This document shows, piece after piece, positions 7,360 through 58,150 of a DNA stretch of 64,000 nt. Below the pieces are notes generated by a model that worked only from the letters and a program-made list of their open reading frames with translations, searched no databases and was not told the DNA's origin. Source of the stretch: the human T2T-CHM13v2.0 reference genome, Homo sapiens. The stretch lies in NCBI RefSeq assembly GCF_009914755.1, contig NC_060946.1, one strand, 5' to 3'. The position numbers and the translations under genes were made by a program. Position 1 is the first letter of the stretch. Every line of letters begins with the position of its first letter.

Positions 7360-9810
7360 GAATTTTTCAATAAATCCAAAAAATTATTTCTTTGAAAGGA
7401 CAAACAAATTAGATGACAAAAAAGAGAGAGCCTATTAAAATATAACAAGAAAAATGGAAAACTGGATAACTGAAAATTTCAAAAGAATGTAATATGTACC
7501 TTTTGGTCATTATATTTGAAAATATATATGAAGAGGTTAATTTTTTAGGGAAAATTTAACTATAAAAATAAATCTAGAGAAATGAGATCATTTGAAGATA
7601 CCAACAATAGAAAAAAATGAAACCGGTGTAAAGTTATAGCACCTTTAAAAGCTCAAGGCCCAGCTGTGTCTCAAGCAGGTCCTCTTAAACTTAATGGAAA
7701 AGTTAATTCCTGCATTCTTCAAACTATTCTTTTGGTTAATGGGAGCAAAGGAAGCATATCTCTCCCTCCATTTATTTCTTAAAACAACTGAAAACCAAAA
7801 GAAAAATCAATATACAAAGAAAAAAAAACTCCACCAACTTTGTTAAAAATAAACACCATTAAAATTATAAACCAAACTTTGAAGACTAGTTGTTAGTGCC
7901 ATTACAATTTAGCCTTTCTTCAAAAAATGATGAGAGTAGATGCAGGCACCTGAGCAACTATGGCATGTTAAACACATAGAGAGACTTATTTTCCCACCTG
8001 AAACTATAACATGATGACAAATGGCTTATTCAAGTGATATAAAAAGAAAACAGCAACATTTTTGAAAATAGGAAGTCCATAAATGGCTGGTAACTGACTT
8101 AGCTTACCAAAAAGTGTAAAATTGTAAGTAGCGGGGAAATCTGATTCTACAAAATGTTCATAAATTGGTTGCACGGGATACCTCTGAAAGTAGAAGTAAA
8201 GGTAGGGCTAAAACCCAGGAAGATTGGTTGAAAGACTGTTTCCAATGTCCACTCCATCAAGCTGCATGAATGCCTCTAGGTTCTGCTGGTGGAAAAGTAG
8301 ACATTTGCTGTCTAGAGAGGTAACAAGGAATCTTAGTACTGGCAATATCATCTTCAATGGTGATACATAAATTAGGGGTGCAAAATGAACAGTAACTACT
8401 GAAAGCTAGATCTCCCCAATTTTCACCTCTATCTAGATTCAAAACATAACAGTCTATTAGTCTTATATCCTCAGAGAAGACTGGAAGACTCTAGTTGGAA
8501 GATCATGATCAGCCCAAAGGAATAGACCAGTGGATATGTCATGAGGAGCTTTTCTGGGAAAACTTCTCGACCTGATTGCCCTGTCTGGAAGCCACAGTTG
8601 ACAATTATTACCTAAGAACCTGAAGCTTACCGTAAACATTTATTGTATTGCTCTTGAACGCAAACAGATAACAAACAATCATGAGATTCTAGGTACAGCC
8701 AATAACAAACACAGAAACAAAAAATAAACAAAACAACTGAAAGTAAACAGAGCCTATACAGTGTGGGAAAAAAGTAATTATTAATTTCCTCAGAGAGGGA
8801 AGATAAGATAATACAACAAGAACAAGGTGTGATATAAAATGGATATTCAAAAAAATAGAATTCTTAAAAATTAAGAAATTTATTGCAGAAATATATAACT
8901 TAATGGGAGATTTGGAAGGTAAAGCTGACTGCATCTGCAGAAAAGTTAGTGTAAACAGAGTTGGGAATGAGAAAGGGAAAGTTTAATGAATTAAATAATT
9001 GGTCCTATAGGGCCAGCAACAAAATACAGGCATTTGGGAAAAGAAAAAAGTACAATGAAGTATGATATATGTAAATAATTTTTTGAAATGGGTAAGAGTT
9101 AAAGTGTATGAATTTCAGATTGAATGTATCCACCAGAATTCAAGCCAGTGGTGAAAATAGACCTAGACCAATGCACACACACACACACACACACACACCA
9201 GCACACTCAGGAAAAAAAAAAAAAAAAAAGAAGACACTTAAAATTTCCAGAGAAGAGAAATATAAATGGTCACTAGAAAACAAGCAAAGCCTTATAAATT
9301 GAAAAACAAATTATTTCTAATGCAGAATAGTATCTCCAACCAAACTAAATCAGATAGGAGGAAACAATAATAAGCATTTACAGCATGGCAAGATTCTAAA
9401 ACTCTACATCCAATACATCCTATCTCAGGAATTTACTGGAGAAGAGTTTCACTAAAATGAGGAAGTAAATGAAGAAAGAGTAGGGTATAAAGTACAGGTA
9501 ATCTCCTGATTATTAGATGTACAGTATGTGTACACAGCAACCTGTGTAAATTAGAGCTATTTAGAAAAAAATTTTCAAAAAGATAAATCTGATAAAATGT
9601 CTAATGCTTCTGAATGCATTATGAGACTCATTAGAAAACTGGAGTAGAGTTTGGAATTGGTACTTTGATACATACATAGAAAAATGAAAAAAACAAAAAT
9701 TTTAAAAAATTGTCAGTTTAACGGAAAAAAATGTTGTGTAGACATGAAATTCAATCATTTATGCTCCATGTTTCAGGTGTGAGTAACATTTACCTAATTA
9801 TAACAGTACT
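7360..9810 (+). mobile_element. Highly degenerate old L1 fragments
   Basis: A-rich + strand with L1 ORF2/ORF1-like phrases (TTTGAAAGGACAAACAAATTAGA, CTCAAGGCCCAG, TTCAGATTGAA..CACCAGA). Includes (CA)n and poly(A) at 9174-9229. Confidence 0.5.
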
Positions 9811-9812
9811 AG

Positions 9813-10060
9813 TGTTACTGGAAAAAGAGGTCCGATCCACACTTCAAGAGAGGGTTTTTGGGCCTCACACAGGAAAGAATTCAAGGTGAGTCACAGAGTA
9901 AAATGAGAAGAAGACATAGTTTATTGAAAGCTACTGCCTTTTAGAGTAGGGCGTCCTCAGAAAGCAAGCAAAGGAATGCACCCTCTTTGTTTTCAGTTTT
10001 TCTGTTATAGGAGTTTTGTCTATGTAAAGACTACATTGAATTGTCTATGTAAAGACTAAA
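9813..10060 (-). mobile_element. ERV1 LTR fragment (MER4 group)
   Basis: TGTTACTGGAAA..GGTCCGATCCA..CAAGAGAGGGTT..GAAAGAATTCAAGGTGAGTC matches the MER4-type LTR 3' end in reverse. Confidence 0.7.
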
Positions 10061-11353
10061 TTGGAAACAAAATAACAAGAAGAAGGAATTTATGCATAAT
10101 CTTCAAATCATGAGGAGTAAAATTCATACAGGACCTACCGCTTAAAGAGTTTCATAGTGGTTACCAGTAGTCATTTTGTGATGTTTATCGATGTGATTCT
10201 TGAATGTAAAAAGAACTACATATAAGATTTCATATTCTGAATTAATGTGCAGCATATTATGTTAAATTGTTAACCAATTTAAAAAATTTTTGAGTTTAAA
10301 TTAGAAATCTTGTTGTTCTATTTATAAATCTAGTACATTAAAAATTATTTTTAAGGGGGACTTTGATTAATGTTTGGTCCATTTACAACTTAGTTAATTA
10401 AACTCCCTTAAAGATTTTAAACTACATTTACAAATTTAATATGTTGAATTATCTTTATGAACATTTTAATTATCGGACTAACAAATAAAGCCTTCAGAGT
10501 ACTTAAACAACCCTTATAGAGCTAATAAATTAAACCCACAAAATCATGAATCTTAAATTATCTTCAATGTTAAACCACTACTGGCAACTCGGTAAAACCG
10601 CTTATAATTTCAACTAAAAAAAAACCCCAATATCTAAAATATTCTGTTACACATTGAAAATTGGAATGTAAAATGCTAATCTATATTTAAATACTAATAC
10701 AATTATAAATAAATATCACATCTCTAAAGTATAAATGTTATAGTTTTCATATACTTCATCATCTCTAAACTTTTTTTCAATGTTTTCCTGGGATAAAAAA
10801 AATCATAAAAACAATTACATTCTCTTAAGCAAATGAGGTTATCACCTCAGTGAGTTGTGGCAACTTTTTCAGGTTGTTTACCTATCAGAGATTTTGACTG
10901 GAAAATGAGATTTGGAGCTTCAGATACTCAGGGTAATTGTTTTTCCCTCATTAATATGGGAACAAATTCTAACATTGTAAAAGTTATGTTAATAGAGATT
11001 CCAAGCCCATGAACTCTAAGTGAAATGGCCATGCAATCCGTTTTCTAGATCCATGTTGCCTACATCTTTAGCCTGATTTTAATATCTAACCTCCCTACTC
11101 TGATTGTTTAGGTACTAGATTAAATTCAAAAATCTATTTACTGTATGATTCTTGACAGAGTTCTTTTTATATTCTTCATACCTGGTGAAGTCATAGCTTT
11201 TCTGGATATTTAAATGACATACACATGTATTATTTAATCTCATGTATATATCTGATTCTGTGGTCACATTTCCCAAGGCCAGATAAATGACTGTAGCCAG
11301 ACAGATGTAGGGCTAGGTGTAAAAGGAGATATTCCCACAGATTATATAGTTGC

Positions 11354-12123: not shown

Positions 12124-13375
12124 GTTGCTGAGAAAATATTCATGGAAAATAGACCTAAATTGATACTGCCTGTTGACATAATTTACTTTACTGATCTTTT
12201 CCTTCACCATTTTAATAAATAGCTCAGACAATAATGAGTCCAATTCAAAAATAATAATAGAAAAGACACCAGCACTGTGCCTGTGTAACATATATTTCAT
12301 GTTAGAGAAAAGCAACAAAGACAATATAATATTAAAAGACAGAAAAAAATTACATGCCACATTGACTATCATTGAATCACAAAGTGAATACAAATTTTTA
12401 ATGCATTGTTTCATTAAATCAAATTCCCCTTCCCGCACCAATACAACTCCTCTGATGTAAGTGACCTAAAAAGACATAAATAGGTTTTAAAGCAGATATA
12501 AGATAAATGCAATATATGTAGAGTGACTTTAGGGAAAGATAAAAGGAAAAATACCTTTTATCTGAGAAATATATATCACACTAGAAACAGCAAGAATGAA
12601 GAATAGATATTTTCAAAATTTACTCAAATAAATGGGTATAAGAAAAAAATCGAGCAAAACAAAATGGAAAAGAATAAATAGGTAACAAGGGTAGAACAAT
12701 ATTTATAGTTGTTTGAAGACAGACAAAGCTGACCTAACATGTTACCATGTATATTTTATCCAGTTTTCCAATTTTGTTTTTATTGCTGGAAAGTTAATTT
12801 GGTCAGAGTTATTTCACCATATTAGCAAGTATAATTTTCAAAACTCACACCCCTTACTTTTTGTATCTTATTTTTTATCCTTTTATTACATATTTTATAA
12901 TATTATATATTCTATACTGAATTATACAGTAAATAAAAAATAAAATATGAACACAACAATTTCATAGAAATGGTGAGTTTTTTTTTTAATTGAGGCAGAA
13001 GTTCATGACTTGAAAATAGAATGATGCAGTAAAGAAATAAACTCAAGAACTCATTTTATGGAAAACGTGAAAACAATTTGCAACATTAAAATAATTAATC
13101 AGAACCTCAATCCAGATTAAGAAGGAATAGAGAACAAATATTCAAATTGGAAGGCAATGAAAATATAATCACAGATATTGATCAAGTAATTAGATAAGAT
13201 CATTTTCTTAATTTTACACAAATATATTGGAAACCCTGGATTATATGATTTTTTCCATATGAAAATATAAGTGACCAAAATGACAAGAGTTATAAGATCT
13301 CAGTATCTTATTAATGGAGAAAAAGATGTTGAAGATATAAAATTCTGAACATTCTCCTCTCAACAAACAGACACC

Positions 13376-13569
13376 AACTCGTCATCTGGCATTAGGTATA
13401 TCTCCCAATGCTATCCTTCCCACCTACCCCCACCCCACAACAGAAAGTGCACCGGCATGGCACATGTATACATATGTAACTAACCTGCACATTGTGCACA
13501 TGTTCCCTAAAACTTAAAGTATAATAATAATAAATAAATAAATAAATAAAAACTTTTAAATAAAAAAAA
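13376..13569 (+). mobile_element. Young L1PA (L1PA2-like) 3' end with 5' inversion (twin priming); driver of the CFTR transduction
   Basis: 13376-13443 is antisense L1 3' UTR (AACTCGTCATCT.GCATTAGGTATATCTCCCAATGCTATCC). 13446-13525 is the sense L1 terminus (GCACC.GCATGGCACATGTATACATATGTAACTAACCTGCACATTGTGCACATG..CCCTAAAACTTAAAGTATAAT), followed by a (TAAA)n tail. Confidence 0.92.
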
Positions 13570-13972
13570 TGGGGACCATTTGCTTATGTGGTTATTAAGG
13601 TCAAATGTAAGTCATGATTTTCCTCGACCAGCTCTGAAAAAATGTCTGTTCTGGTTAAGACTGGGTAAAATGGATGATTTATTTATTCAATAAAGTTATT
13701 GAATGCTCGCCGTGTGCAAGATACAGTGTTGAATGTGGTGCGAGATATAAAGATGTGGAAGAAAAAGCCACTGAAAATAATATGAGGAAATAAAAAACTA
13801 GAGTAAATTATCAGTGGAATAATTTCTATTACACAAGACACTACACCCAAACATTCTCCTAATGCTCATGTAAGAATTTCTCCAAAAATACCTTCCAGCA
13901 CTACAAACTAGAAGACAAAAGAGACATGGATACCAAATTAAGTTCTTAATAGTGAAGAATAAAAGAGACTAC

Positions 13973-14241
<269 letters not shown>

Positions 14242-15589
14242 TCAGGAAGAAATGTATCAAGATATGAAAGTACTGATAACTCAATGCTATTTAAAGTTTT
14301 CCTCTTTTAATTCTAGCTATGAAAAATTAATTTGTATTAGGCCATCCCACTTGGCAAGAACAATTATGAAAGCTGGATAAAATTAATTAAAAATAAGTAG
14401 CTATTTAAGGCCTTCTGATAGCAATCAAAGTATCCAGAACTTGAGTGTGTAAGCTCTCATAAAGAAGAGAAACACATTGAATTGATTTCAACATTCTCCA
14501 CAACCTTTCATTTGGATACATTTGCTGAGCAGATAGCTAAGAAGAAAATGGTAGCTCAAAGATGTTAGAAATCTGGTAGGCCTGCATAGACAACAATTGG
14601 AATTCATGACTATCATGGTGGCCAGGGCTTGATAAAGGGCCAGTAGAAACAAAACAATTTCGTTTTGTTTTTCCTTCACAGCATTTTCTGATTCTTTAGT
14701 TGCAGAAGGTGAGCAACTAAGAAGCTTAGCATAAAATGGAGCTACCCGACTAAAAGGAAGTTAAGCAGACCTCTCAGCAAAAGGATAGACAAAATTGGAG
14801 TTCAACAAGGAACAGAGGACCTAGAAATCTCTGTAGGCATTGAGACCCCTAAAAAGCTAATTCCTAGCTGAAAAGGCAAACTAGAAATGCACCAGCTGCC
14901 ACAAAAACTGAAATCTAGCCTCAAGGCATTTCAGTCTGATTAGACCAAGAGGATCTACCTCTAAGCCAGAAGAAAACTACAATTTCTTTGGAGGGAGATC
15001 CCATCTAAAGACTTTTTCTCTTAGGTCAATGTCTGGCTTTTGATCATAAATAACCAGGCGTATCAGTCAGCAGGGCTAAATGATGCATGCACACACATGT
15101 GCGTGCACGCACAAACAGAGCGAGAGTGACAGAGGGAGAGGAGAAATCCATAGCTTTAAATGTTTCCATGTAAAGAAAATAAAAATACTTCCAAATATAT
15201 TTATGAATAAATATTGTATTTATACTAAACTGGACCAAAGCTGAACACATGTGTTCTCTTCCCATCCCTTTCTCTTCATCTCTCTCATATACACTACACA
15301 CAATAAAATACAGGCCTATTCCACTAATAAATATTACTGCAAATATTCTAAAGCTGTACTTTACAATTAAAAGTTGCAATCCCATTAAAATCATACTTCA
15401 TAATCAAGTAGTGTTCATGTTAGTAAGCAAGAATGGATGACTATTAGGAAATAGTTTACTATAATTTATCATGTTAATAGAAAAACAATAATCTCCAGAA
15501 ACTTCAACATATATTACCAATTAAATAATATTAATAGAATAGTATTATAATGAGATAGATGCAATTTAATCCAAAATTCAGAATTTATG

Positions 15590-16991: not shown

Positions 16992-17689
16992 CATAGAACT
17001 TCTCCATATATATATATATAATCTATATATAATTAATTAGAAAAATTAGAGACACATAAGCTAAATTTTGGCTCTTATAGGCTATTCAGTTAGCAGTCAT
17101 GAGTAAATGTATTGAACTTCTCTTTCTTGGTGAAAATATTGTGTTCCATCAAGCACTAACCATATGGAAAGTTTGGAAGTTGAACAAAGACTGTTCATTA
17201 AGCTTGAAAGGGACAGATCAGAGCCAGCTAGCACTTTGTAACTTGGCAGTCAGGCCTCAAAATCAAGCCTATTATTTTAGTAGGCCAATTAAATTTTTTA
17301 GAAACTCAGTGGAAAGGTGGCATCTTCACACATTTTCAGCACCTTATAAATTAGGTACTTTTGCCTGGTACTAAAATATCCTTCTTGAACTTAAAAATCA
17401 AAATCAATAAATCAATCTACTTCTCAGGCAACAAAGAAGCAGATGAAAGGCAACAACGGGGCAGATTAAACTTCTAGCAATGAATCCCAAATATACAGGA
17501 GCCTTAGTTTGATTAAGATGACAAAAAATCTCCTGGAGGAAGGGCACTCAAGTCTGTCTCATGGTCTCTTTGTTCTTCCTAAAATCTACATCCCTTGCAT
17601 CAACTACAGTACTATAGTCAATGATTTGAAGTTGAAGCATAATATCTTATTTTTTCAGACATTGCAAGTATATAACAGATCACAAAGTT

Positions 17690-17925
17690 TTTTTTTCTTT
17701 TTTTTTTTTTTGAGACGGAGTCTCGCTCTGTCACCCAGGCTGGAGTGCAGTGGCACGATCCTCACTGCAAGCTCCGCCTCCTGGCTTCACGCCATTCTCC
17801 TGCCTCAGCCTCCCGAGTAGCTGAGACTACAGGCGCCCGCCACTACGTCTGGCTATTTTTTTCTATTTTTCAGTAGAGACAGGGTTTCACCGTGTTAGCC
17901 AGGATGGTCGCGATCTCCTGACCTC
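17690..17925 (-). mobile_element. 5'-truncated AluY with 12-bp TSD
   Basis: AluY diagnostics (GCAAGCTCCGCC, CACGCCATTCT, GTGTTAGCCAGGATGG). TSD GATCACAAAGTT at 17678-17689 and 17926-17937. Confidence 0.95.
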
Positions 17926-20710
17926 GATCACAAAGTTGATTATCTTTTCACTTGTCAAGTTCTTACACTGTCTATCTAAAATTCATATCTTGACCTTTCA
18001 TGTCTGTCTTCAAAAACAAATCATCTCTCTTCCCACTCTCTGTCAATTGGATCTCTTTGTCTTTGCTTTGTTCTGGAGGAGAGAAAGGTATAGCTGTATT
18101 ATTTTCTTCTTTGTCTGAATTAAACAGCTGTTCTTGGAGAGTGGTGAGCAGTTCTTTATGCAAAGGAGAACTGGTTACTTAGTTTTGTACCATTTACAAA
18201 AAAAGTAAGAAAATGCTGAAAACCAGTATCTTAAAATATTCACTTTATTCAGTTTTATTTTAATTGGGGCACAGATATAAGGGAATATTTTTAGTTGAAT
18301 AAGGAATAAAAATATTTTGTTATAAATCCTCAAGAATATTTATACCTTAAAATTGTTTTTATAATTCTGTTTCTATGACATCCAAATGGGCAAAATTTTT
18401 TCTGGAATTTAGACAGATTTACAAATAATTGCATAAATATGTCTAGAAATTGAAAAATTAAAAGAAAAATACAACAATGAGAAAGTGAATTGAACTTGAA
18501 AAATACCCTAATTGTGAAAACCAAACTTTCATAGTATTATTTTAATGTTTTCTGATTTGCATTTTGGGAATTCTTGCCTTCACTGTGTTTTTTTCCTTAG
18601 ATTTTCTCTACATACTGTTCACAAAATTCAGTTAAAAACTATTTTAGAGATTTTCTAGGGAAAGGGCTGCATGCTCAGTCATTGACTGTTACTTACTTTG
18701 GTACAATTAGGGGTATTAAATTTGAATTCATAGGATTTGTGCTTCTCCCCACACAGGCTGACTATTCGTAGCTGTTCCTGCTTGGAATACATATTGGCTT
18801 AATTAATCAGTACTATTTGGAACTCTGTGAAAATGCAAACTAATTATGAACTTTCTCTGATAAGAGACAATTTTGGCTCCTGATTATTTGCTTTTCCCTA
18901 CATTTATATAACAGCAATCTCATGAAATCGAGCATTAGATCAGCATGTTACTGATTTGCACTTCAGGCAATTTGCACCTCTGAATTGCTTTCCTTTCTGA
19001 TATCCTCAGATGCAAAATCTTGAAAAAGAGCATGCAGTCAGACCTTTATTTGATTGTTTGATAATTGTTTTTCCTCTCTGTTTCCATTAGCATTATTTGT
19101 GGAAGACCATAGCAGTGGGAGTTCTTGTCACAGAAATCTTGTGACCTCTGTGTTTGGTAGCTATAGACTGCAATGAGTTTATCTCTTCATAGGGGAAATT
19201 GAGAAGAGATCACTGCTACCCACTACCCAAGCTCTGGTTTTCTTTACAAAGCTTCTGCATAAATCACAACTACATAGCTTCAGTGACGGACCTAACTCTT
19301 GCTTGGAAGTGTGGCAGCAGAGTTGGATTTAAGAGTCATGGATTTAAGAGCAGAGTCATGGATTTAAGCTACAGTCTCATCACTACTTTATTTATAGTAA
19401 ACACTCTGGGGGAGACTTTTAGTGCTAGATTCTTTGCTAGACTCTGGTGTTGAAATATATGTCAGCTATGGCCTCAGCTCTCAAGGCATTAGTTGTGTTT
19501 GTGTGTATTGTGTGTTTTGAGGGAGGTGTTAGGTGTTGGTTGAAAGAATGAGGAAGGGGAGCAAGATTTGAGGAGAAAACAAACATGCAAACGTACATGG
19601 TTTCATTGAATAATCTGCACTTCTGAATTGTCAATACATCCATCTGATTCAGTCATAATTGAATTAGAATCATCCTGAGCGGCGGTGGAAAACATTGAAT
19701 ATTTTTTTTCACACTGAAGCCAGAACTCTTGGGTACCATAACCCAGCAATATTGTTTGCTGGCTGTCACTTAAACTCACAAAACACCTCTGTTTTATCAT
19801 CTCTAATAAATACAGACACAATATTCTGTTTTATATATATGTATATATCTTGCAAAATTATTGTGATGATGAAAAATGAAATGTAATACACACTGAATAA
19901 TGCATAGTAGATGGTAAGCACTAAATAAATGGCTATGTAAGCAGTGATTCCTCTCTTTGTTATCTTCATCATTACAATTTCTACATAGGTTTTATTTCAG
20001 TGATTTTTATAGTAATGACTTTGCTTATTTTATAAAAATACTTCATGCCAAAGAGTACAAAGAAAACAAAATAAATCACCCCAAATTTTCAGAAACAACC
20101 AATGTTAACTGTTGGTGGAATTCATTTGGGTGATTTTTTTGTTTGTTTCTTCTTTGCACTTTTTGCTATTTTTCAAGTTTAAAAGGAATAAGCACATACA
20201 ATTATTATAATAGCTGTAAAATAGTTATATGTGTTTCAAATTTCATACTCCAAAAAGTTTGGATATAGATGGAAGATACATAACTATATGTATAGTGAGA
20301 GAGAGAGCTAGCAGAATAGATAAAAAATAATTTTATAATAAAAGAATACTATATCTGCTTTTTTAATTGGAAGTATTAAATTTATCTATGTGACTGCATT
20401 ATTTCCTAAAGGTCACATTTTTTTAAAAAAAATTTAAAAAACATTAGAAGATTGCATCATTATAATTTATTTCTTAAATTTTAATTATATGTATATCTAT
20501 GAATAATTTATGCATAAACATATATATGTAATGTCAAATCCTAAGAAAATGTATACAACTTAGGGAATTATCACAAAACAAACACCTCCACAACTACCAC
20601 TCAGAATAACTTTTTTTTGCAAAATAGATTACTACTCCTTGATTTGTCTTCAAAGATACCCACTATTTGGAGTTTACTTTTCTTAATGTTTTGATATTTA
20701 TATACCCACA

Positions 20711-28070: not shown

Positions 28071-28574
28071 ATTCTTATAATGGGGTAGTTATGCCTGTCT
28101 CCTTGTGTTGCTGTAGGATTTCATGAGATAACATATAAGGAACCACCCAGAATGTTGTCTGGCACATAGTAACTGCTCAATAAATCACAACTGGATGCTA
28201 TTGAAGATAAAGTTACCTGAGTTCTCTGAGGCTTGCTCTCTTCAGCTGAAAATTCTCCCAAAATATATGAGATGAGACCCTACTGTATTATACAGGGTTC
28301 ATAAATAGCACTCCCCCTTTTCCCTTCCCACAGAGTGCAGTGAATAGAAGACACTTCTCTGCACCCCAAAAGCTCCATGCTGATTGCGAGAAGGAAATGC
28401 TGGATGGAGGGGTTCCTGGTACCACTGTGAGGGGTGAGATTTCCCCAGATGTCTAGAAATGAGGCAGGGGCCCGACATCTTCCACCCCCACTAAGGTTAC
28501 CTTGCAGTTCCTAGCTGGCTCTATACTTCCTAGAAACTGCCACTTTTCTGCCTCCATTACCTCATAGCCCAGTC

Positions 28575-29087
28575 AGCACTATCATCATCATCACCATGAT
28601 CACCACCACCATCCTTACAATCACCAACACTATCATCGTCGCCATCACCATTCTTACCCTCGCCATTCTCACCATCATCAACACCAGCATCTTCACCATA
28701 ACTATCACTATCGTTATCACCACCTTCACCATCACCATCCTCACCATAATAATTATTGTCACCCTCCTCATCCTCATAATCGTCATCATTATCATCATTA
28801 CCATCACTATCATCATCACTATCACCATTCTCACCATCATCATCCTCATCATCATCACCATTATCCTCACCATAAATATCACTATTATCATCACCACCTT
28901 CGCCATCACCATCCTTATCATCACCATCACAATCACCACCATCACCATTCTCACCATCACCATGTTCACCTTTACCACTCTCACCATCATCATCACCTTC
29001 ATCATCCTCAACATAACTATCACTTCATTATCACCTCCACCTTCACCATCACCATCCTCACCATCATCATCACCACCATCACAATGA
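28575..29087. repeat. Degenerate (CAT/CAC)n trinucleotide tract, copy 1
   Basis: ATC/ACC triplet low complexity with recurrent CATAACTATCAC sub-motif. Confidence 0.95.
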
Positions 29088-37089: not shown

Positions 37090-40000
37090 GGTTACGGTTA
37101 TGGTGGGGCTGGGGTATTTACCTGGAGCCTGGATGTCCACTGGGACATGATACCCACTGGGATTTTTTTGTGTCAACCTTTTCTCTGATGTCCTCCTGGG
37201 GACTGGGTATCCACCTAAGGCCTGATGTTTACCTGGAGCCAGATGTGCACCTGAGGCCTGATGTCTATCTGTGGCCTTATGTTCACCTGGTGACTGATGC
37301 ACATCTGAAGCATAGTTATTCACCTGGGGCCTGATATCCACCTGTAGTATGGGTGTCAACCTTAGGGCTGACGTTCAGCTGGCATCCACTGTCTACTTCG
37401 GGCCTGGTGTACACATGGGGCCTGGGCATCCACCGGACACTTGATGTTTAATATGGTCTGGAGTTCTCTTGGGGCCTGTTGTACCCTGGAGCCTGGGTGT
37501 ACACCTGGAGCCTGATGTCCCAGGTGGACACCTGGGTCCCAGGTGATCTTCAGGCCATAGGTGAAAACTCCAGGCTCTAAGTGGACAACAAGGCCCCACG
37601 CTGATGTTTACTGGGGCCAGATGTCTACCAGGCCCCAGCTGAAAACTCCAGGCTCCAAGTGGACAACATGGCCCCAGGTTCCAGGTAGACACTGGAATCC
37701 AAATCAACACCAGGCCCCAGATGGACACCCAGGCCTGTGGTGGACATCAGACTCCAGAAGGTCATCTGGCTCTAGGTGAATATCAAGCCCCAGGTGGATA
37801 CCTAGTCCCCAGGTGGATATCAGGCCCCACTTTGACACCTGTCCCTGCGTAGATACCTTGGCCTCAGGTGGATATCCATTCTCTAGCTAAGCATCAGGCT
37901 CCAGGTGGACCCAGGCCCTAGCTGACTGGGGACTGGTGTTCATATGGGGCCACATGTCCATCTGGGCCCTGGGTGTCAACTTGTAGCCTGATGTCAACCT
38001 GGGAGCTGGTGTTCACCAGAGGACTAAAGTCCTCCTGGTGGCTGATGTCCAACTTGGGACTTTGTGTCCACCTGGAGACTGATGTCCACTTGGGACCAGA
38101 TGTCCAACTGGAGCAAGATGTCCACCTGTAGCCTAGAACTTCACCTAAGGCCTGATGTTCCCCAGGGCCTACAGGGCCTGTGTATCTACCTAGGGACTTG
38201 TGTCCAGGTGGGACCTGAGTTCCATCTGGGGCCTGGAATTAACATGGGACCTGATGTCCACCTGAGGCCTGGGTGTTCCCCTGGAGTCTGATATCTATCT
38301 GGGGCCTGGGTGTCCTCCTGTGGTCTGATGTCCACTTGAAGTCTGGTGTCCACCTGGGGCCTGGGTGTCCACCTAGGAACCTGATGTATACCTGAAGTCT
38401 AGTATCTACCTGGGTACTGATGTCTACCAGGAAAGTGATATAAACCTGGGGACTGAAAGCCACCTGGGCTCCGAGTGTCCACATATGTTCTGATTTCCGC
38501 TTTTGGCCTGAGTGTAGGTCCTGAGTGCCACCTGGGTCCTGATGTTCACCAGGAACCTAGGTATTCACTTGGGGCTTGCTGTCCACCTGGGGCCTAATGT
38601 CCACGTGGGACCTGGTATTCACCTAGAGCCTGGGCAGCCACCTGTGGCCTGATGTTCAGCTGGTGACTAGGAATTCCACTAAGGCTTGATGTCCACCTGG
38701 GGCATAGGTAACCACTTGTGGCCTAGTGTTGCCCTGAAGCCTAGGTGTCAACCCAGGGCATAATGTCTTCTTGGGGCCTGCCGTCCACCTGCAGAATGGT
38801 GTCTGCATAGAGCCTGGTATCCACCTGGGATCTGGTGTCTGCCTGGGGCCTAATGTCCACCTGAAGACTGAGTATAGACCTCAGACCTGATGTATGCCTG
38901 GGGCCTGTTTATCCACCTGGGGATGAGCATTCATCTGGGGCCTCATGTCCACTTAAGCCCTAGGTGTCAACCTGGTGCCTAATGGCCACCAGGGATCTAT
39001 GTACTCACTTGGGGCCTGGTGCTCCCATAGGGCCTAGGTATACACCTGGGGAATGATGTGCAGGTGGAGGTGGATGTCTTCCTGGATGCTGGTGTTCACC
39101 TGGGGACAAGGGTCTCCCTGGGGACCGGTGTTTATCGGGAGCCTCATATGCACCTTGAACCTGCTGTCTACCTAGGGCCTGATGTCCATGTTAAGGCTGG
39201 GTGTCCACCTGGGACCTGGTTGTCCACTTGGGGCCTAATGTCCACCTAAGACCTAGTGTTCACCTAGGGCCTGGGTGTCCACCTGGAGCCTGATGTTCAG
39301 CTGGAGATGCATCCACCCAAGACCTAGGTATCCACCCAGGGTCTGGTGTCGAACTGGGGTCTTGTGTCCACCTGGGGACTAGATATCTACCCGAGGCTTG
39401 ATGTCCACCTGGAGCCCGATATCCACCTCAGAGCTGGGTGTCCACCCAGGTTCTGGTATCCACCCAGAGCCTGGTGTTCATCTGGGGCCCAGTGCCCACC
39501 TGGAACCTGGGTATCACCATGGGGCCTGGGTGTCCACTTGGAACGTGATGTGCACCTGGGACCTGAGTTTCCACCTAGGGCCTGATGACCACCTGAGACC
39601 CAGGTGTCCACCTGGGGTCTGATGTCTACCTGAAGCCTAGGTAACCACCTAGGGCATGATGTTACCTGTGCCTTGATTTCCACCTCAGCCTGCTGTACAC
39701 CTGGGGCCTGGGTGTCCATCTGAGGCCTGACGTACACCTCAAGTCCAGTGTCCACTTGTGGCCTGATGTCAACTTGGAAGCTGATATCCACCTGGGGACT
39801 GATGTTCTCCTGGGGCCTGATATCCAACTGGGATCAGATGTTCACCTAAGGCCTGGAGTTAATCTGGGGCCTGATGGTCACCAGGGTCCCAGGTGTCCAC
39901 CTAGGACCTGATGTCCACCTGGAGTCTAGTATCCGCCTTGGCCCTGATGCTACTTGAGGCCTGGGTGTCTTCCTAGAACCTGAGTCCCCAACTGGGCCCT

Positions 40001-40285
40001 AATGTCCACCTGAGACCTGGTGTCCTTGTAGGGCGTGATATCTACCTAAGGCCTGGGTATCCTCCTGCAGCCTGATGCTCACCTGTAGGCTGGTGTCCAT
40101 ATGGGGCCTAGGTGTCCACCTGTGATCCTGATGTACACCTGGAGTCCAGTGTCCCCTTGGTTACTAATATGTACCAGGAAAATGGTATATACCTGGGGCC
40201 TGATATACCCCTGGAGCCTGTATGTCCACCTGAGCCCTGATGTCCACCTGGGGCCTGGTGTTTACCTGGGGCCTATATCCACCCA
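37090..40285. repeat. Degenerate 18/19-bp minisatellite (GGGGCCTGATGTCCACCT / GGGGCCTGGGTGTCCACCT), ~3.2 kb, with an inverted block at ~37520-37925
   Basis: The unit is visible throughout. The inverted block reads AGGTGGA(C/T)A(T/C)CAGGCCCC. Confidence 0.92.
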
Positions 40286-48450: not shown

Positions 48451-48912
48451 CACCATCACCATCCCCATACTCACCATCACCATCCTCATTATCGTCATCA
48501 GTCTCACCCTCACCATTCTCACCAGCATCAGCAGCAGCATCCCCACCATAACTATCAGTATCATCACCACCTTCACTATCACCATCCTCACCATCACCAT
48601 CATCATCACTATCACCACCACCATTTTCACCATCACCATCCTGACCATCACCATCATTATCACCTCACCATCACCATCCTTACCATCACCATCACCATGC
48701 TCACTTTCACCATTCTCACCATTCTCATCATCATCCTCCTCAGCATAACTGTCACTATCATCAGCACCTTCACCATCACCTTCCTCACCATCACCAATAT
48801 TATCACCATAACTATCCTCACCATCATCCTCAACATAACTATCACTATCATTATCACCACCTTCATCATCACCATCCTCACCATTATCATCATCATCACA
48901 ACCACAATTATC
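48451..48912. repeat. Degenerate (CAT/CAC)n trinucleotide tract, copy 2 (homologous to 28575-29087)
   Basis: Same triplet composition and the same ordered variant motifs as copy 1. Confidence 0.93.
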
Positions 48913-56350: not shown

Positions 56351-58150
56351 AGCCGCGGCGGCGGGGGTAAAAATCCTCGGCGGCGGGGGTAAAAAGCGGC
56401 GGCGGCAAAAAGCGGGGGCGGTGGGGTAAAAAGGCGCGGAAGCGCGGGCAAAAAGCCGCGGGAGCAGGGTCAAAAAACCACAAAAAGCCGCAGCGGCGGG
56501 GGGAAAAAGCCACTGCGGCAAAAAGCCTCGGCGTCGGGAGCAAAAAGCCATGGCATCGGGGGTAAAAGCCACGGCGGCGGGGGCCAAAAGCCGCGGCATC
56601 GGGGGAAAAAGCCAAGGCGGCGGGGGCAGAAAACCGCGGCGGCAGGGAGCAAAAGGCCGCGGCGGTGGGCGCAAAAAGCTATGGCGGCGGGGGCAAAAAG
56701 GGGCGGCGGCGGGAAGCAAAAAGCCGCGGCGCTGGGGGCAAAAAGCCGCGTTGGCAAAACCCGCGGCGGCGGGCGCAAAAAGCACCGGCGGCCGAAACAC
56801 GCGGCAGGGGGAGCAAAAAGTCGCGGCGGTGGGGGCAAAAAGCCGCAAAAAGTAGCGGCGGCGGGGAAAAAAACCCGCGACGGGGGGAAAAGCCGCGGCG
56901 GCATGGGCAAAAAGCCACCTCGGCAAAAGCCGCGGCGGCGGGGACAAAAAGCCGCGGCGGTGGGCGCAAAAAGCCCTGGCGGTGGGGGTCAAAAGCCGCG
57001 GCGGCAAAACCCATGGCGGCGGGGGCAAAAAGCTGCAAAAAGCAGCGGCGGTGGGGGCAAAAACCCGCGGCGGCAAAAGGTCGCGGCGGGGGGCCAAAAA
57101 GCCGCGGCGGCCAAAACCCGCGGGAGGGGGAGGCGGGCAAAAAGACGTGGCGGCCAAAACCTGCGGCTGGAGGAGCAAAAAGCCGCGGCGGCGGGGGAAA
57201 CAAGCCCCGGCGGCAGGAGCGAAAAGCGCAAAAAGCAGCGGCGGCGGGGGCAAAAAGCCTCGGCGGCAGGGGCAGAAAACCGCGACGGCGGGGGCAGAAA
57301 TCCACGGCGATGGGGAGCAAAAAGCCGCGGCGGCGGGCGCAAAAAACCGCGGCGGCAGGGACAAAAAGGGGCGGCGGGCAGCAAAAACCGCGGCGGCGGG
57401 GCGCAAAAAACCGCGGCGGCGGGGGCGAAAAGCCGCAAAAAGCAGCGGCGGCGGGGGCAAAAACCGCGGCGGCAAAAAGCCGCGGCGGCGGGGACAAAAA
57501 GGGGCGGTGGCGGGAAGCAAAAAGCCGCGTTGGCAAAACCTGTGGCAGCGGGCGCAAAAAGCACCGGCGGCCAAAACCCGCAGCGGTCAGAGCAAAAAGC
57601 CGCCGCGAGGTGGGGAACAAAAGCCCTGGCGGTGGGGGTCAAAAGCCGCATCGGCAAAACCCATGGTGGCGGGGACAAAAAGCTGCAAAAAGCCGCGGCG
57701 GCGGGGGAAAAAACGGCGGCAAAAGTTCGCGGCGGCGGGGGGCCAAAAAGCCGCGGCGGTGGGGGCAAAAAGCCACGGCGGCCAAAACCCGCGGTGTGTG
57801 GGGGGGCAAAAAGCCATGGCGGCCAAAACCTAAGGCGGCAGGAGCAAAAAGCCGCGGCGACGGGGGCAAAAAACTGCAGCGGTGGGGGCAAATAGCCTCG
57901 GCGGCCGGGGCGAAAAGCCGCAAAAAGCAGCGCCGGCGGGGGGAAAAAGCCTTGGCGGCAGGAGCAGAAAGCCGCGACGGCGGGGAGCAAAAAGCCGCGG
58001 CGGCGGGGACAAAAAGCCGCGGCGGCGCGGGAGAAAGCCGGAGCGATGGGGGCAACAAGCCGCGGCGGCAAAAACCTGCGGCGGGGGTGACAAAAAGCCG
58101 CGGCGGCGGGAGCAAAGAGCCACAAAAACCCGCTGCGGCTGGGACAAAAT
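56351..58150. repeat. GC-rich pericentromeric tandem repeat, unit ~CAAAAAGCCGCGGCGGCGGGGG
   Basis: ~1.8 kb of A4-6 tracts alternating with GCCGCGGCGGCGGGGG. This repeat type is known from hominoid pericentromeric duplicon junctions. Confidence 0.92.

What the first reader, a model, noticed from the sequence alone, without database searches (positions are those of the whole stretch)
13376..13600. Fossil record of a source L1 that once sat antisense inside CFTR, ~400 bp downstream of exon 10
Seen: the L1 tail joins CFTR intron sequence directly at ~13570. The L1 bases (GTCATCT, CTCCCAATG, CATTGTGCAC) look L1PA2-like. Inference: an active, probably full-length young L1 was inserted in the CFTR intron at that position. 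I do not recall such an element in the reference CFTR gene, so the donor allele may have been polymorphic and then lost, making this copy its only trace.
Basis: inference. Interest (0 to 1): 0.7.

Follow-up and report, generated by a model that had tools for sequence, protein, structure and literature searches.

The report
Old L1 copied CFTR exon 10
This is one of six human copies of an already reported insertion holding a LINE-1 end plus a backwards piece of the cystic fibrosis gene, likely made about 12-17 million years ago by a LINE-1 that then sat in that gene's intron and was likely never fixed in our ancestors.

Summary
Window 13374-14211 is one L1-made insertion between target-site duplications. 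It holds an inverted L1 3' UTR piece, a sense L1 3' end with its tail, about 636 bp of antisense CFTR (intron 10, exon 10, intron 9) and a second poly(A). CHM13 has six copies and four empty paralogous sites, so this is one insertion spread by segmental duplication, not the "only trace". In CFTR the join lies 407 bp from exon 10 at TTTTT/GT, an L1-endonuclease-like site. There is no L1 end or scar there, and the tail was found nowhere else in the genome. A 3' transduction from a donor L1 that never fixed is the best reading (about 0.78). Template switching from an independent antisense RNA is not excluded. Copies differ from CFTR by 2.9-4.0%, and carrier flanks differ by up to 3.6%. That likely places the event near the orangutan split, not in recent humans, so orangutan and gibbon are the informative genomes. 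The locus is in print (Rozmahel 1997, Liu 2004, El-Seedy 2009; titles seen only), and donor-less transductions are a described class. Low interest.

The parts
13365..13373 (+). 5' target-site duplication (9 bp; 12 bp, from 13362, if the chr20:25.9 Mb copy keeps the original 3' end)
   Evidence: Exact 9-mer shared with 14212-14220; present once in 4 of 4 empty paralogues; chr20:25.9 row
13374..13443 (-). Inverted L1 3' UTR piece (G-rich tract to just before the inversion point); 2-nt microhomology with the end of the duplication
   Evidence: Opposite-strand hits of query 13-84 next to the hits of 87-210 in genomic L1s; compared base by base
13444..13445 (.). Inversion junction: about 7-8 L1 bases missing, 2 extra A
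   Evidence: Comparison with genomic L1 3' ends and all six copies
13446..13525 (+). Sense L1 3' end
   Evidence: 88-98% matches to 33 L1-end loci genome-wide among the 40 scored candidates
13526..13569 (+). Patterned, interrupted A-rich tail, likely the donor L1's genomic tail; its last five A are shared with CFTR
   Evidence: Shared by all six copies; a 29-base stretch of it matches 6 places within 2 mismatches, all six being the copies; control 8
13565..13972 (-). First 407 bp of CFTR intron 10, copied antisense; its start would be the donor's 3' target-site duplication
13973..14146 (-). CFTR exon 10 (legacy exon 9) copy, 174 bp, with 4-bp and 5-bp deletions and an in-frame stop
14147..14200 (-). 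End of CFTR intron 9 with the TG/T acceptor tract (TG7, 8 T counted up to the final AACAG, against TG10, 9 T in CHM13 CFTR counted the same way)
14179..14184 (+). AATAAA on the antisense strand of CFTR intron 9, about 15 nt before the second poly(A): likely the cryptic signal used
   Evidence: the same hexamer is in CFTR, which has no A-run at the cleavage point
14200..14211 (+). Second poly(A), not templated by CFTR beyond its first A
14212..14220 (+). 3' target-site duplication

Best explanation
The element is a single L1-made insertion with a 5' inversion, carrying antisense CFTR intron 10-exon 10-intron 9 and present in six duplicated copies, and it likely arose by 3' transduction from a donor L1 that would have sat antisense in CFTR intron 10, 407 bp from the exon, and was likely never fixed. 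Steps: (1, inferred) an active L1 inserted at the TTTTT/GT site in a great-ape ancestor. (2, inferred) Its RNA read through its own tail, crossed exon 10 backwards and was cleaved about 15 nt after an AATAAA in intron 9. (3, anatomy shown, twin priming inferred) The RNA was reverse transcribed into one member of an already duplicated block, with a short inversion and a 9-12 bp target-site duplication. (4, shown) That block was duplicated again to chr9, chr20 (three), chr14 and chr22. (5, inferred) The donor allele was lost by drift or selection, and the untouched allele is today's CFTR. The copy is a frameshifted, promoterless fragment with no expected function.
For: Two A-rich tracts and a target-site duplication, the layout that PMC4859970 gives for 3' transductions (passage). 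Four empty paralogues join cleanly across one copy of the duplication. Carriers form one clade on the right flank with 100% bootstrap; 7 left-flank and 10 right-flank columns (6 events) separate all carriers from all empties. The CFTR join is TTTTT/G, found at 94 of 30,000 positions (0.31%) of the surrounding sense strand. No scar, A-run or L1 3' end is left in CFTR. Both L1 pieces come from one continuous stretch of L1 RNA. The interrupted tail is in all six copies and nowhere else, so a switch model would likely need a lost L1 as well. CFTR's branch (1.5%) is no longer than the copies' root-to-tip lengths (1.4-2.6%), and L1s with the same diagnostics lie 2.2% from their majority (7 loci). 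Transductions without a donor within 5 kb are reported in 13 macaque, 9 orangutan and 1 chimpanzee cases (PMC4862182, passage).
Against: The donor itself was not seen and no ape genome was available. TTTT/GT is an imperfect site: the consensus is TTTT/AA or YYYY/RR, and none of rows 1-57 of the table read has TTTT/GT, though ATTT/GT and TTTT/GA occur. The five shared A would equally guide a template switch. Three of 9 fixed differences from CFTR fall in the first 16 of about 618 columns (P about 0.001), unexplained, though the copies also vary more there (5 of 47, P 0.007). The L1 age groups are small, were picked by similarity, and did not order by age as recalled (PA3-like 1.65% to majority, below the 2.2% of the matching class).
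Confidence: 0.78

Rival explanations
1. No L1 was ever in CFTR. L1 reverse transcriptase started on an independent polyadenylated antisense CFTR RNA, then switched at the five-A run to the tail of an L1 RNA (trans mobilisation plus template switch).
For: The donor site is empty and unscarred. The join has 5-A microhomology. A 2025 paper cites Rozmahel 1997 and Ejima and Yang 2003 for 'orphan' transductions (PMC12533184, passages). Antisense transcription exists in CFTR (BGas, PMC5023374, passages).
Against: BGas is described as lying in intron 11 and ending about 1.2 kb from the F508 codon, so it does not reach exon 10. The model needs an extra RNA, a switch landing at the very end of an L1 tail, and an L1 with this tail, which was not found in CHM13 (tails mutate fast, so this is soft). 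Described chimeras mostly have L1 at the 3' end (recalled).
Confidence: 0.15
2. The donor L1 was fixed in CFTR for a time and then removed exactly, by recombination between its target-site duplications or by gene conversion.
For: The cluster of three differences in the would-be duplication could mark repair at this spot.
Against: Exact removal is rare (recalled), and loss of a segregating allele needs no special event. The CFTR branch shows no excess length.
Confidence: 0.05
3. DNA-level duplication of a CFTR fragment next to an existing L1 end, or two separate insertions side by side.
For: The region is a segmental duplication.
Against: One target-site duplication encloses L1 and CFTR together, the second poly(A) is untemplated and follows AATAAA, and empty paralogues lack both parts.
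Confidence: 0.02

Closest known systems
Amplified CFTR exon 9 sequences / LCR7-20 / CFTR pseudogenes (Rozmahel 1997; Liu 2004; El-Seedy 2009; Deeb 2015)
   Same: The same exon with flanking introns in several duplicated copies; chr9 and chr20 pseudogenes are named in PMC5121184 (passages). Titles seen in reference lists. That Rozmahel described two L1 segments, antisense transcription and empty copies is recalled, not read.
   Different: The chr22 and chr14 copies are not named in the passages read, and RefSeq annotates no gene in this window. The endonuclease-like donor site, the tree and the date were not found in the papers that could be read.
L1 3' transduction with 5' inversion (twin priming)
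   Same: Two A tracts, downstream AATAAA, target-site duplication, inverted 5' piece with a small indel (PMC4859970, passages and part 2 of 4 of section 6).
   Different: The source locus holds no L1, and the product was later multiplied by segmental duplication.
Donor-less transductions in primates (TIGER class 1, PMC4862182)
   Same: Transduced sequence whose source has no L1 within 5 kb, read as separate segregation of donor and product (passage).
   Different: Those are polymorphic today; this one is old and present six times in the reference.
Trans mobilisation of an ATM exon (Ejima and Yang 2003)
   Same: Exon plus introns, antisense poly(A), no L1 at the source (content recalled; title seen).
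   Different: Here an L1 3' end with its whole tail is joined directly to the transduced sequence.

Membership tests
L1-mediated insertion (TPRT) | Target-site duplication against an empty site | tested here: met
   9-12 bp, single in 4 of 4 empty paralogues
L1-mediated insertion (TPRT) | Untemplated 3' poly(A) | tested here: met
   CFTR has no A-run at the cleavage point
L1-mediated insertion (TPRT) | Endonuclease-like target at the recipient site | tested here: inconclusive
   Bottom strand reads TGTT/GA or GTTT/GT depending on the duplication length: pyrimidine/purine step, not the consensus
L1 3' transduction | L1 3' end and tail, then unique DNA, then a second poly(A) after a signal | tested here: met
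L1 3' transduction | Donor L1 immediately upstream of the source sequence | tested here: not met
   None in CHM13 CFTR; loss is inferred, so membership stays likely rather than shown
L1 3' transduction | Transduced sequence starts at an endonuclease-like site (donor's 3' duplication) | tested here: met
   TTTTT/GT; TTTTT/R at 94 of 30,000 positions; imperfect against YYYY/RR
L1 3' transduction | Donor present in an outgroup or another haplotype | not testable with these tools
   G000 has no relatives in the collection
Twin-primed 5' inversion | Inverted 5' piece adjoining the sense piece on the same L1 RNA, with small indel and primer microhomology | tested here: met
L1PA2 subfamily | Diagnostic 3' UTR bases against the curated consensus | tested here: inconclusive
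   No repeat library on hand; labels recalled. The piece shares TTGGGAG/GCTAGA with the younger group and CATT with the PA3-like group, so it looks transitional
Amplified CFTR exon 9 / LCR7-20 copies | CFTR legacy exon 9 with flanking introns inside a multi-copy duplication | tested here: met

The most novel reading that the evidence does not exclude
The donor L1 survives at this exact spot of CFTR intron 10 in orangutan or gibbon through incomplete lineage sorting. That would give a dated parent-offspring pair for a textbook exon-shuffling case and show an L1 antisense promoter reading across the disease-relevant TG/T acceptor in a living ape.
Probability: 0.1. Interest if true: 0.55.

Novelty: already known. 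Interest (0 to 1): 0.24.

Why it matters
The locus and the mechanism class are known. What this adds is modest. It gives a base-level anatomy favouring a lost donor over trans mobilisation, and a date that redirects the search from human or archaic genomes to orangutan and gibbon. It also lists six CHM13 copies, two of them on chr14 and chr22, that carry the exon and its TG/T tract and could draw off or donate short reads in CFTR testing (the chr9 and chr20 copies are already known to do so).

Tried and rejected
Donor remnant in CFTR: 23 L1-end queries against 30 kb gave only Alu-type flank matches and a 27-37 bp match about 4 kb away. No 10-12 base repeat of the junction within 1.5 kb, longest A-run 6. 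Sibling or intermediate L1 with the same tail: none beyond the six copies, so serial transduction is not supported. The G variant next to the inversion point as a lineage marker: 68 exact matches, but in the 20 inspected it sits on two backgrounds, 4 CATT and 16 CAAT, so it does not define a donor lineage. BGas as the template: lies in intron 11. RNA editing as the source of the fixed differences: only 3 of 9 are A-to-G on the RNA strand. Primary papers (Rozmahel 1997, Ejima and Yang 2003, Liu 2004, El-Seedy 2009, and L1 dating and twin-priming papers) were not read: look-ups were not held, and Liu 2004 was seen only as a title. Searches showed no paper that discusses a lost donor at this site, but the library lacks most subscription papers, so this is no evidence that the idea is unpublished; I recall it being raised in the 1999-2003 L1 literature. 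No supplements were read; Supplementary Table 2 of PMC5121184 may list the copies. Earlier scan findings were not available.

Full report
Observation. A search of the window's own genome with 13360-14230 gave six end-to-end matches (chr22, chr14:8.68 Mb, chr20:25.92, 30.58 and 31.27 Mb, chr9:48.43 Mb) and one match on chr7 that covers only 13561-14200. A search with the CFTR part alone gave the same 7 places from 7 candidates. The chr7 exon is CFTR residues 404-464, exon 10 in current numbering and exon 9 in the old one (PMC5172161, passage).

Anatomy. From left to right: a 9-bp duplication (13365-13373), an inverted L1 3' UTR piece (13374-13443), a junction lacking about 7-8 L1 bases, the sense L1 end (13446-13525), a patterned tail (13526-13569), antisense CFTR intron 10 (407 bp), exon 10 (13973-14146, with 4- and 5-bp deletions), about 54 bp of intron 9 with AATAAA at 14179, an untemplated poly(A) (14200-14211) and the second duplication (14212-14220). 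The layout is the one reviewed for 3' transductions and 5' inversions in PMC4859970 (passages).

One insertion, many copies. The right flank has 10 close paralogues and one weak match. Four of the ten (chr15:44.9, chr7:57.9, chr14:8.41, chr12:37.4 Mb) lack the whole insert and hold the duplicated bases once. The same ten share at least window 500-24980; the chr15 copy is the most distant (91-92%) and may be the ancestral locus (inference). Carriers and empties separate with 100% bootstrap on the right flank and 94% on both flanks together. On the left flank the split is broken by an exchange near window 11.0-11.3 kb, left of which the chr22 and chr14:8.68 copies are about 1% from the empty chr14:8.41 copy. 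Inside that point, 7 left and 10 right columns (6 events) separate all carriers from all empties. So the insertion happened once, in a block that had already begun to duplicate.

The donor site. In CFTR the copied stretch begins at a run of five T followed by GT on the sense strand, 407 bp after the exon. T5/purine steps make up 94 of 30,000 positions nearby and YYYY/R steps 1,150. The consensus cut site is TTTT/AA with common variants; the 57 table rows read include ATTT/GT and TTTT/GA but not TTTT/GT. No L1 3' end lies within 30 kb, and no repeat or A-run scar lies beyond the join: today's allele looks like a site that was never used. The interrupted tail is in all six copies and, within two mismatches, nowhere else (6 matches, control 8). 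The short stem before the carriers split (13 events over roughly 5 kb) makes it likely that the interruption was inherited from a genomic donor tail (inference).

Age. Copies differ from CFTR at 18-24 of 604-616 sites, 2.9-4.0%, with 95% intervals spanning 1.8-5.8%; without the first 16 columns the range is 2.2-3.4%. Apart from the two recent pairs, carrier flanks differ by 2.4-3.7% over 3.3-3.8 kb, and carriers differ from empties by 3.2-4.9%. With recalled genome distances (human-chimpanzee about 1.2%, gorilla about 1.7%, orangutan about 3.1-3.4%) the event likely falls near the orangutan split, roughly 12-17 million years ago; faster mutation near centromeres would make it younger. Of 43 L1 loci examined, 31 were full over the 490 bases compared. 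The 7 with the insert's diagnostics lie 2.2% (non-CpG) from their majority, the 18 with the CAAT variant 1.4% and the 5 PA3-like ones 1.65%; one was unclassified. The samples are small and biased and do not rank as expected, so they show only that the L1 class and the transduction are of compatible age. L1PA2- and L1PA3-type transductions are reported in orangutan (PMC4862182, passages).

Mechanism. Most likely (0.78) an active L1 inserted antisense at the T5/G site, read through its tail, ended at the cryptic signal in intron 9, and was copied by target-primed reverse transcription with twin priming; the donor allele then failed to fix. The main rival (0.15) is a template switch from an independent antisense CFTR RNA to an L1 tail at the five shared A. 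It predicts the same junction but needs more events, and the one antisense RNA I could read about, BGas, lies in intron 11. Exact removal of a fixed donor is a minor rival (0.05). One thing is unexplained: 3 of 9 fixed differences sit in the first 16 bases of the copied stretch (P about 0.001), where the copies also vary more among themselves.

What is known. The amplified CFTR exon 9 sequence (Rozmahel 1997), its duplication unit LCR7-20 (Liu 2004) and its effect on diagnosis (El-Seedy 2009, Deeb 2015) are in print; I saw their titles in reference lists and the citing passages only. That Rozmahel reported the two L1 segments and the antisense origin is recalled. Transductions whose source lacks an L1 are a described class. 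My ten searches did not show a paper with the donor-site or dating argument, but the library lacks the key older papers.

Verdict. Observation confirmed; interpretation partly supported: likely right on a lost donor, wrong on uniqueness and likely wrong on recency. Already known; interest 0.24.

Noticed in passing
window about 11000-11300: Exchange point: to the left the chr22 and chr14:8.68 copies are about 1% from the empty chr14:8.41 paralogue (19 shared private sites from 9509 to 11246), to the right they are closest to the carrier at chr20:30.58 Mb.
   Followed up: partly
window 500-28000 against G000:C14:8663906-8691764: The chr22 and chr14 blocks are 99-100% identical, which suggests recent exchange between these chromosomes; chr14 has about 310 extra bases at window 15007-15020, whose opposite strand matches the window repeat at 17689-17926.
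   Followed up: no
window about 24985: Duplication boundary: the ten-member block ends here and a second block begins that is shared with chr17, chr13, chr20, chr14, chr21 and chr7, with a 74% match on chr1:54.89 Mb.
   Followed up: no
L044 and L046 (chr20:31.27 and chr9:48.43 Mb copies): These two sister copies carry further L1 3' ends on both sides, near window-equivalent 9300 and 17710, that the other copies lack.
   Followed up: no
window 37185-40283: Degenerate 18/37/55-bp GC-rich tandem array, about 129 copies of the 18-mer.
   Followed up: no
window 56351-58121: GC-rich 22-bp CAAAAAG-type tandem array with strong strand skew; such arrays are recalled as markers of pericentromeric duplication ends.
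   Followed up: no
window 28573-29082 and 48451-48904: Two degenerate CAT/CAC triplet arrays of about 450-500 bp.
   Followed up: no
window 14147-14175 and the five other copies: The TG/T acceptor tracts of the copies differ in length (6-7 dinucleotide units, 8-12 T up to the final AACAG), and three copies have a TG-to-GG change; relevant to short-read typing of the CFTR tract.
   Followed up: partly
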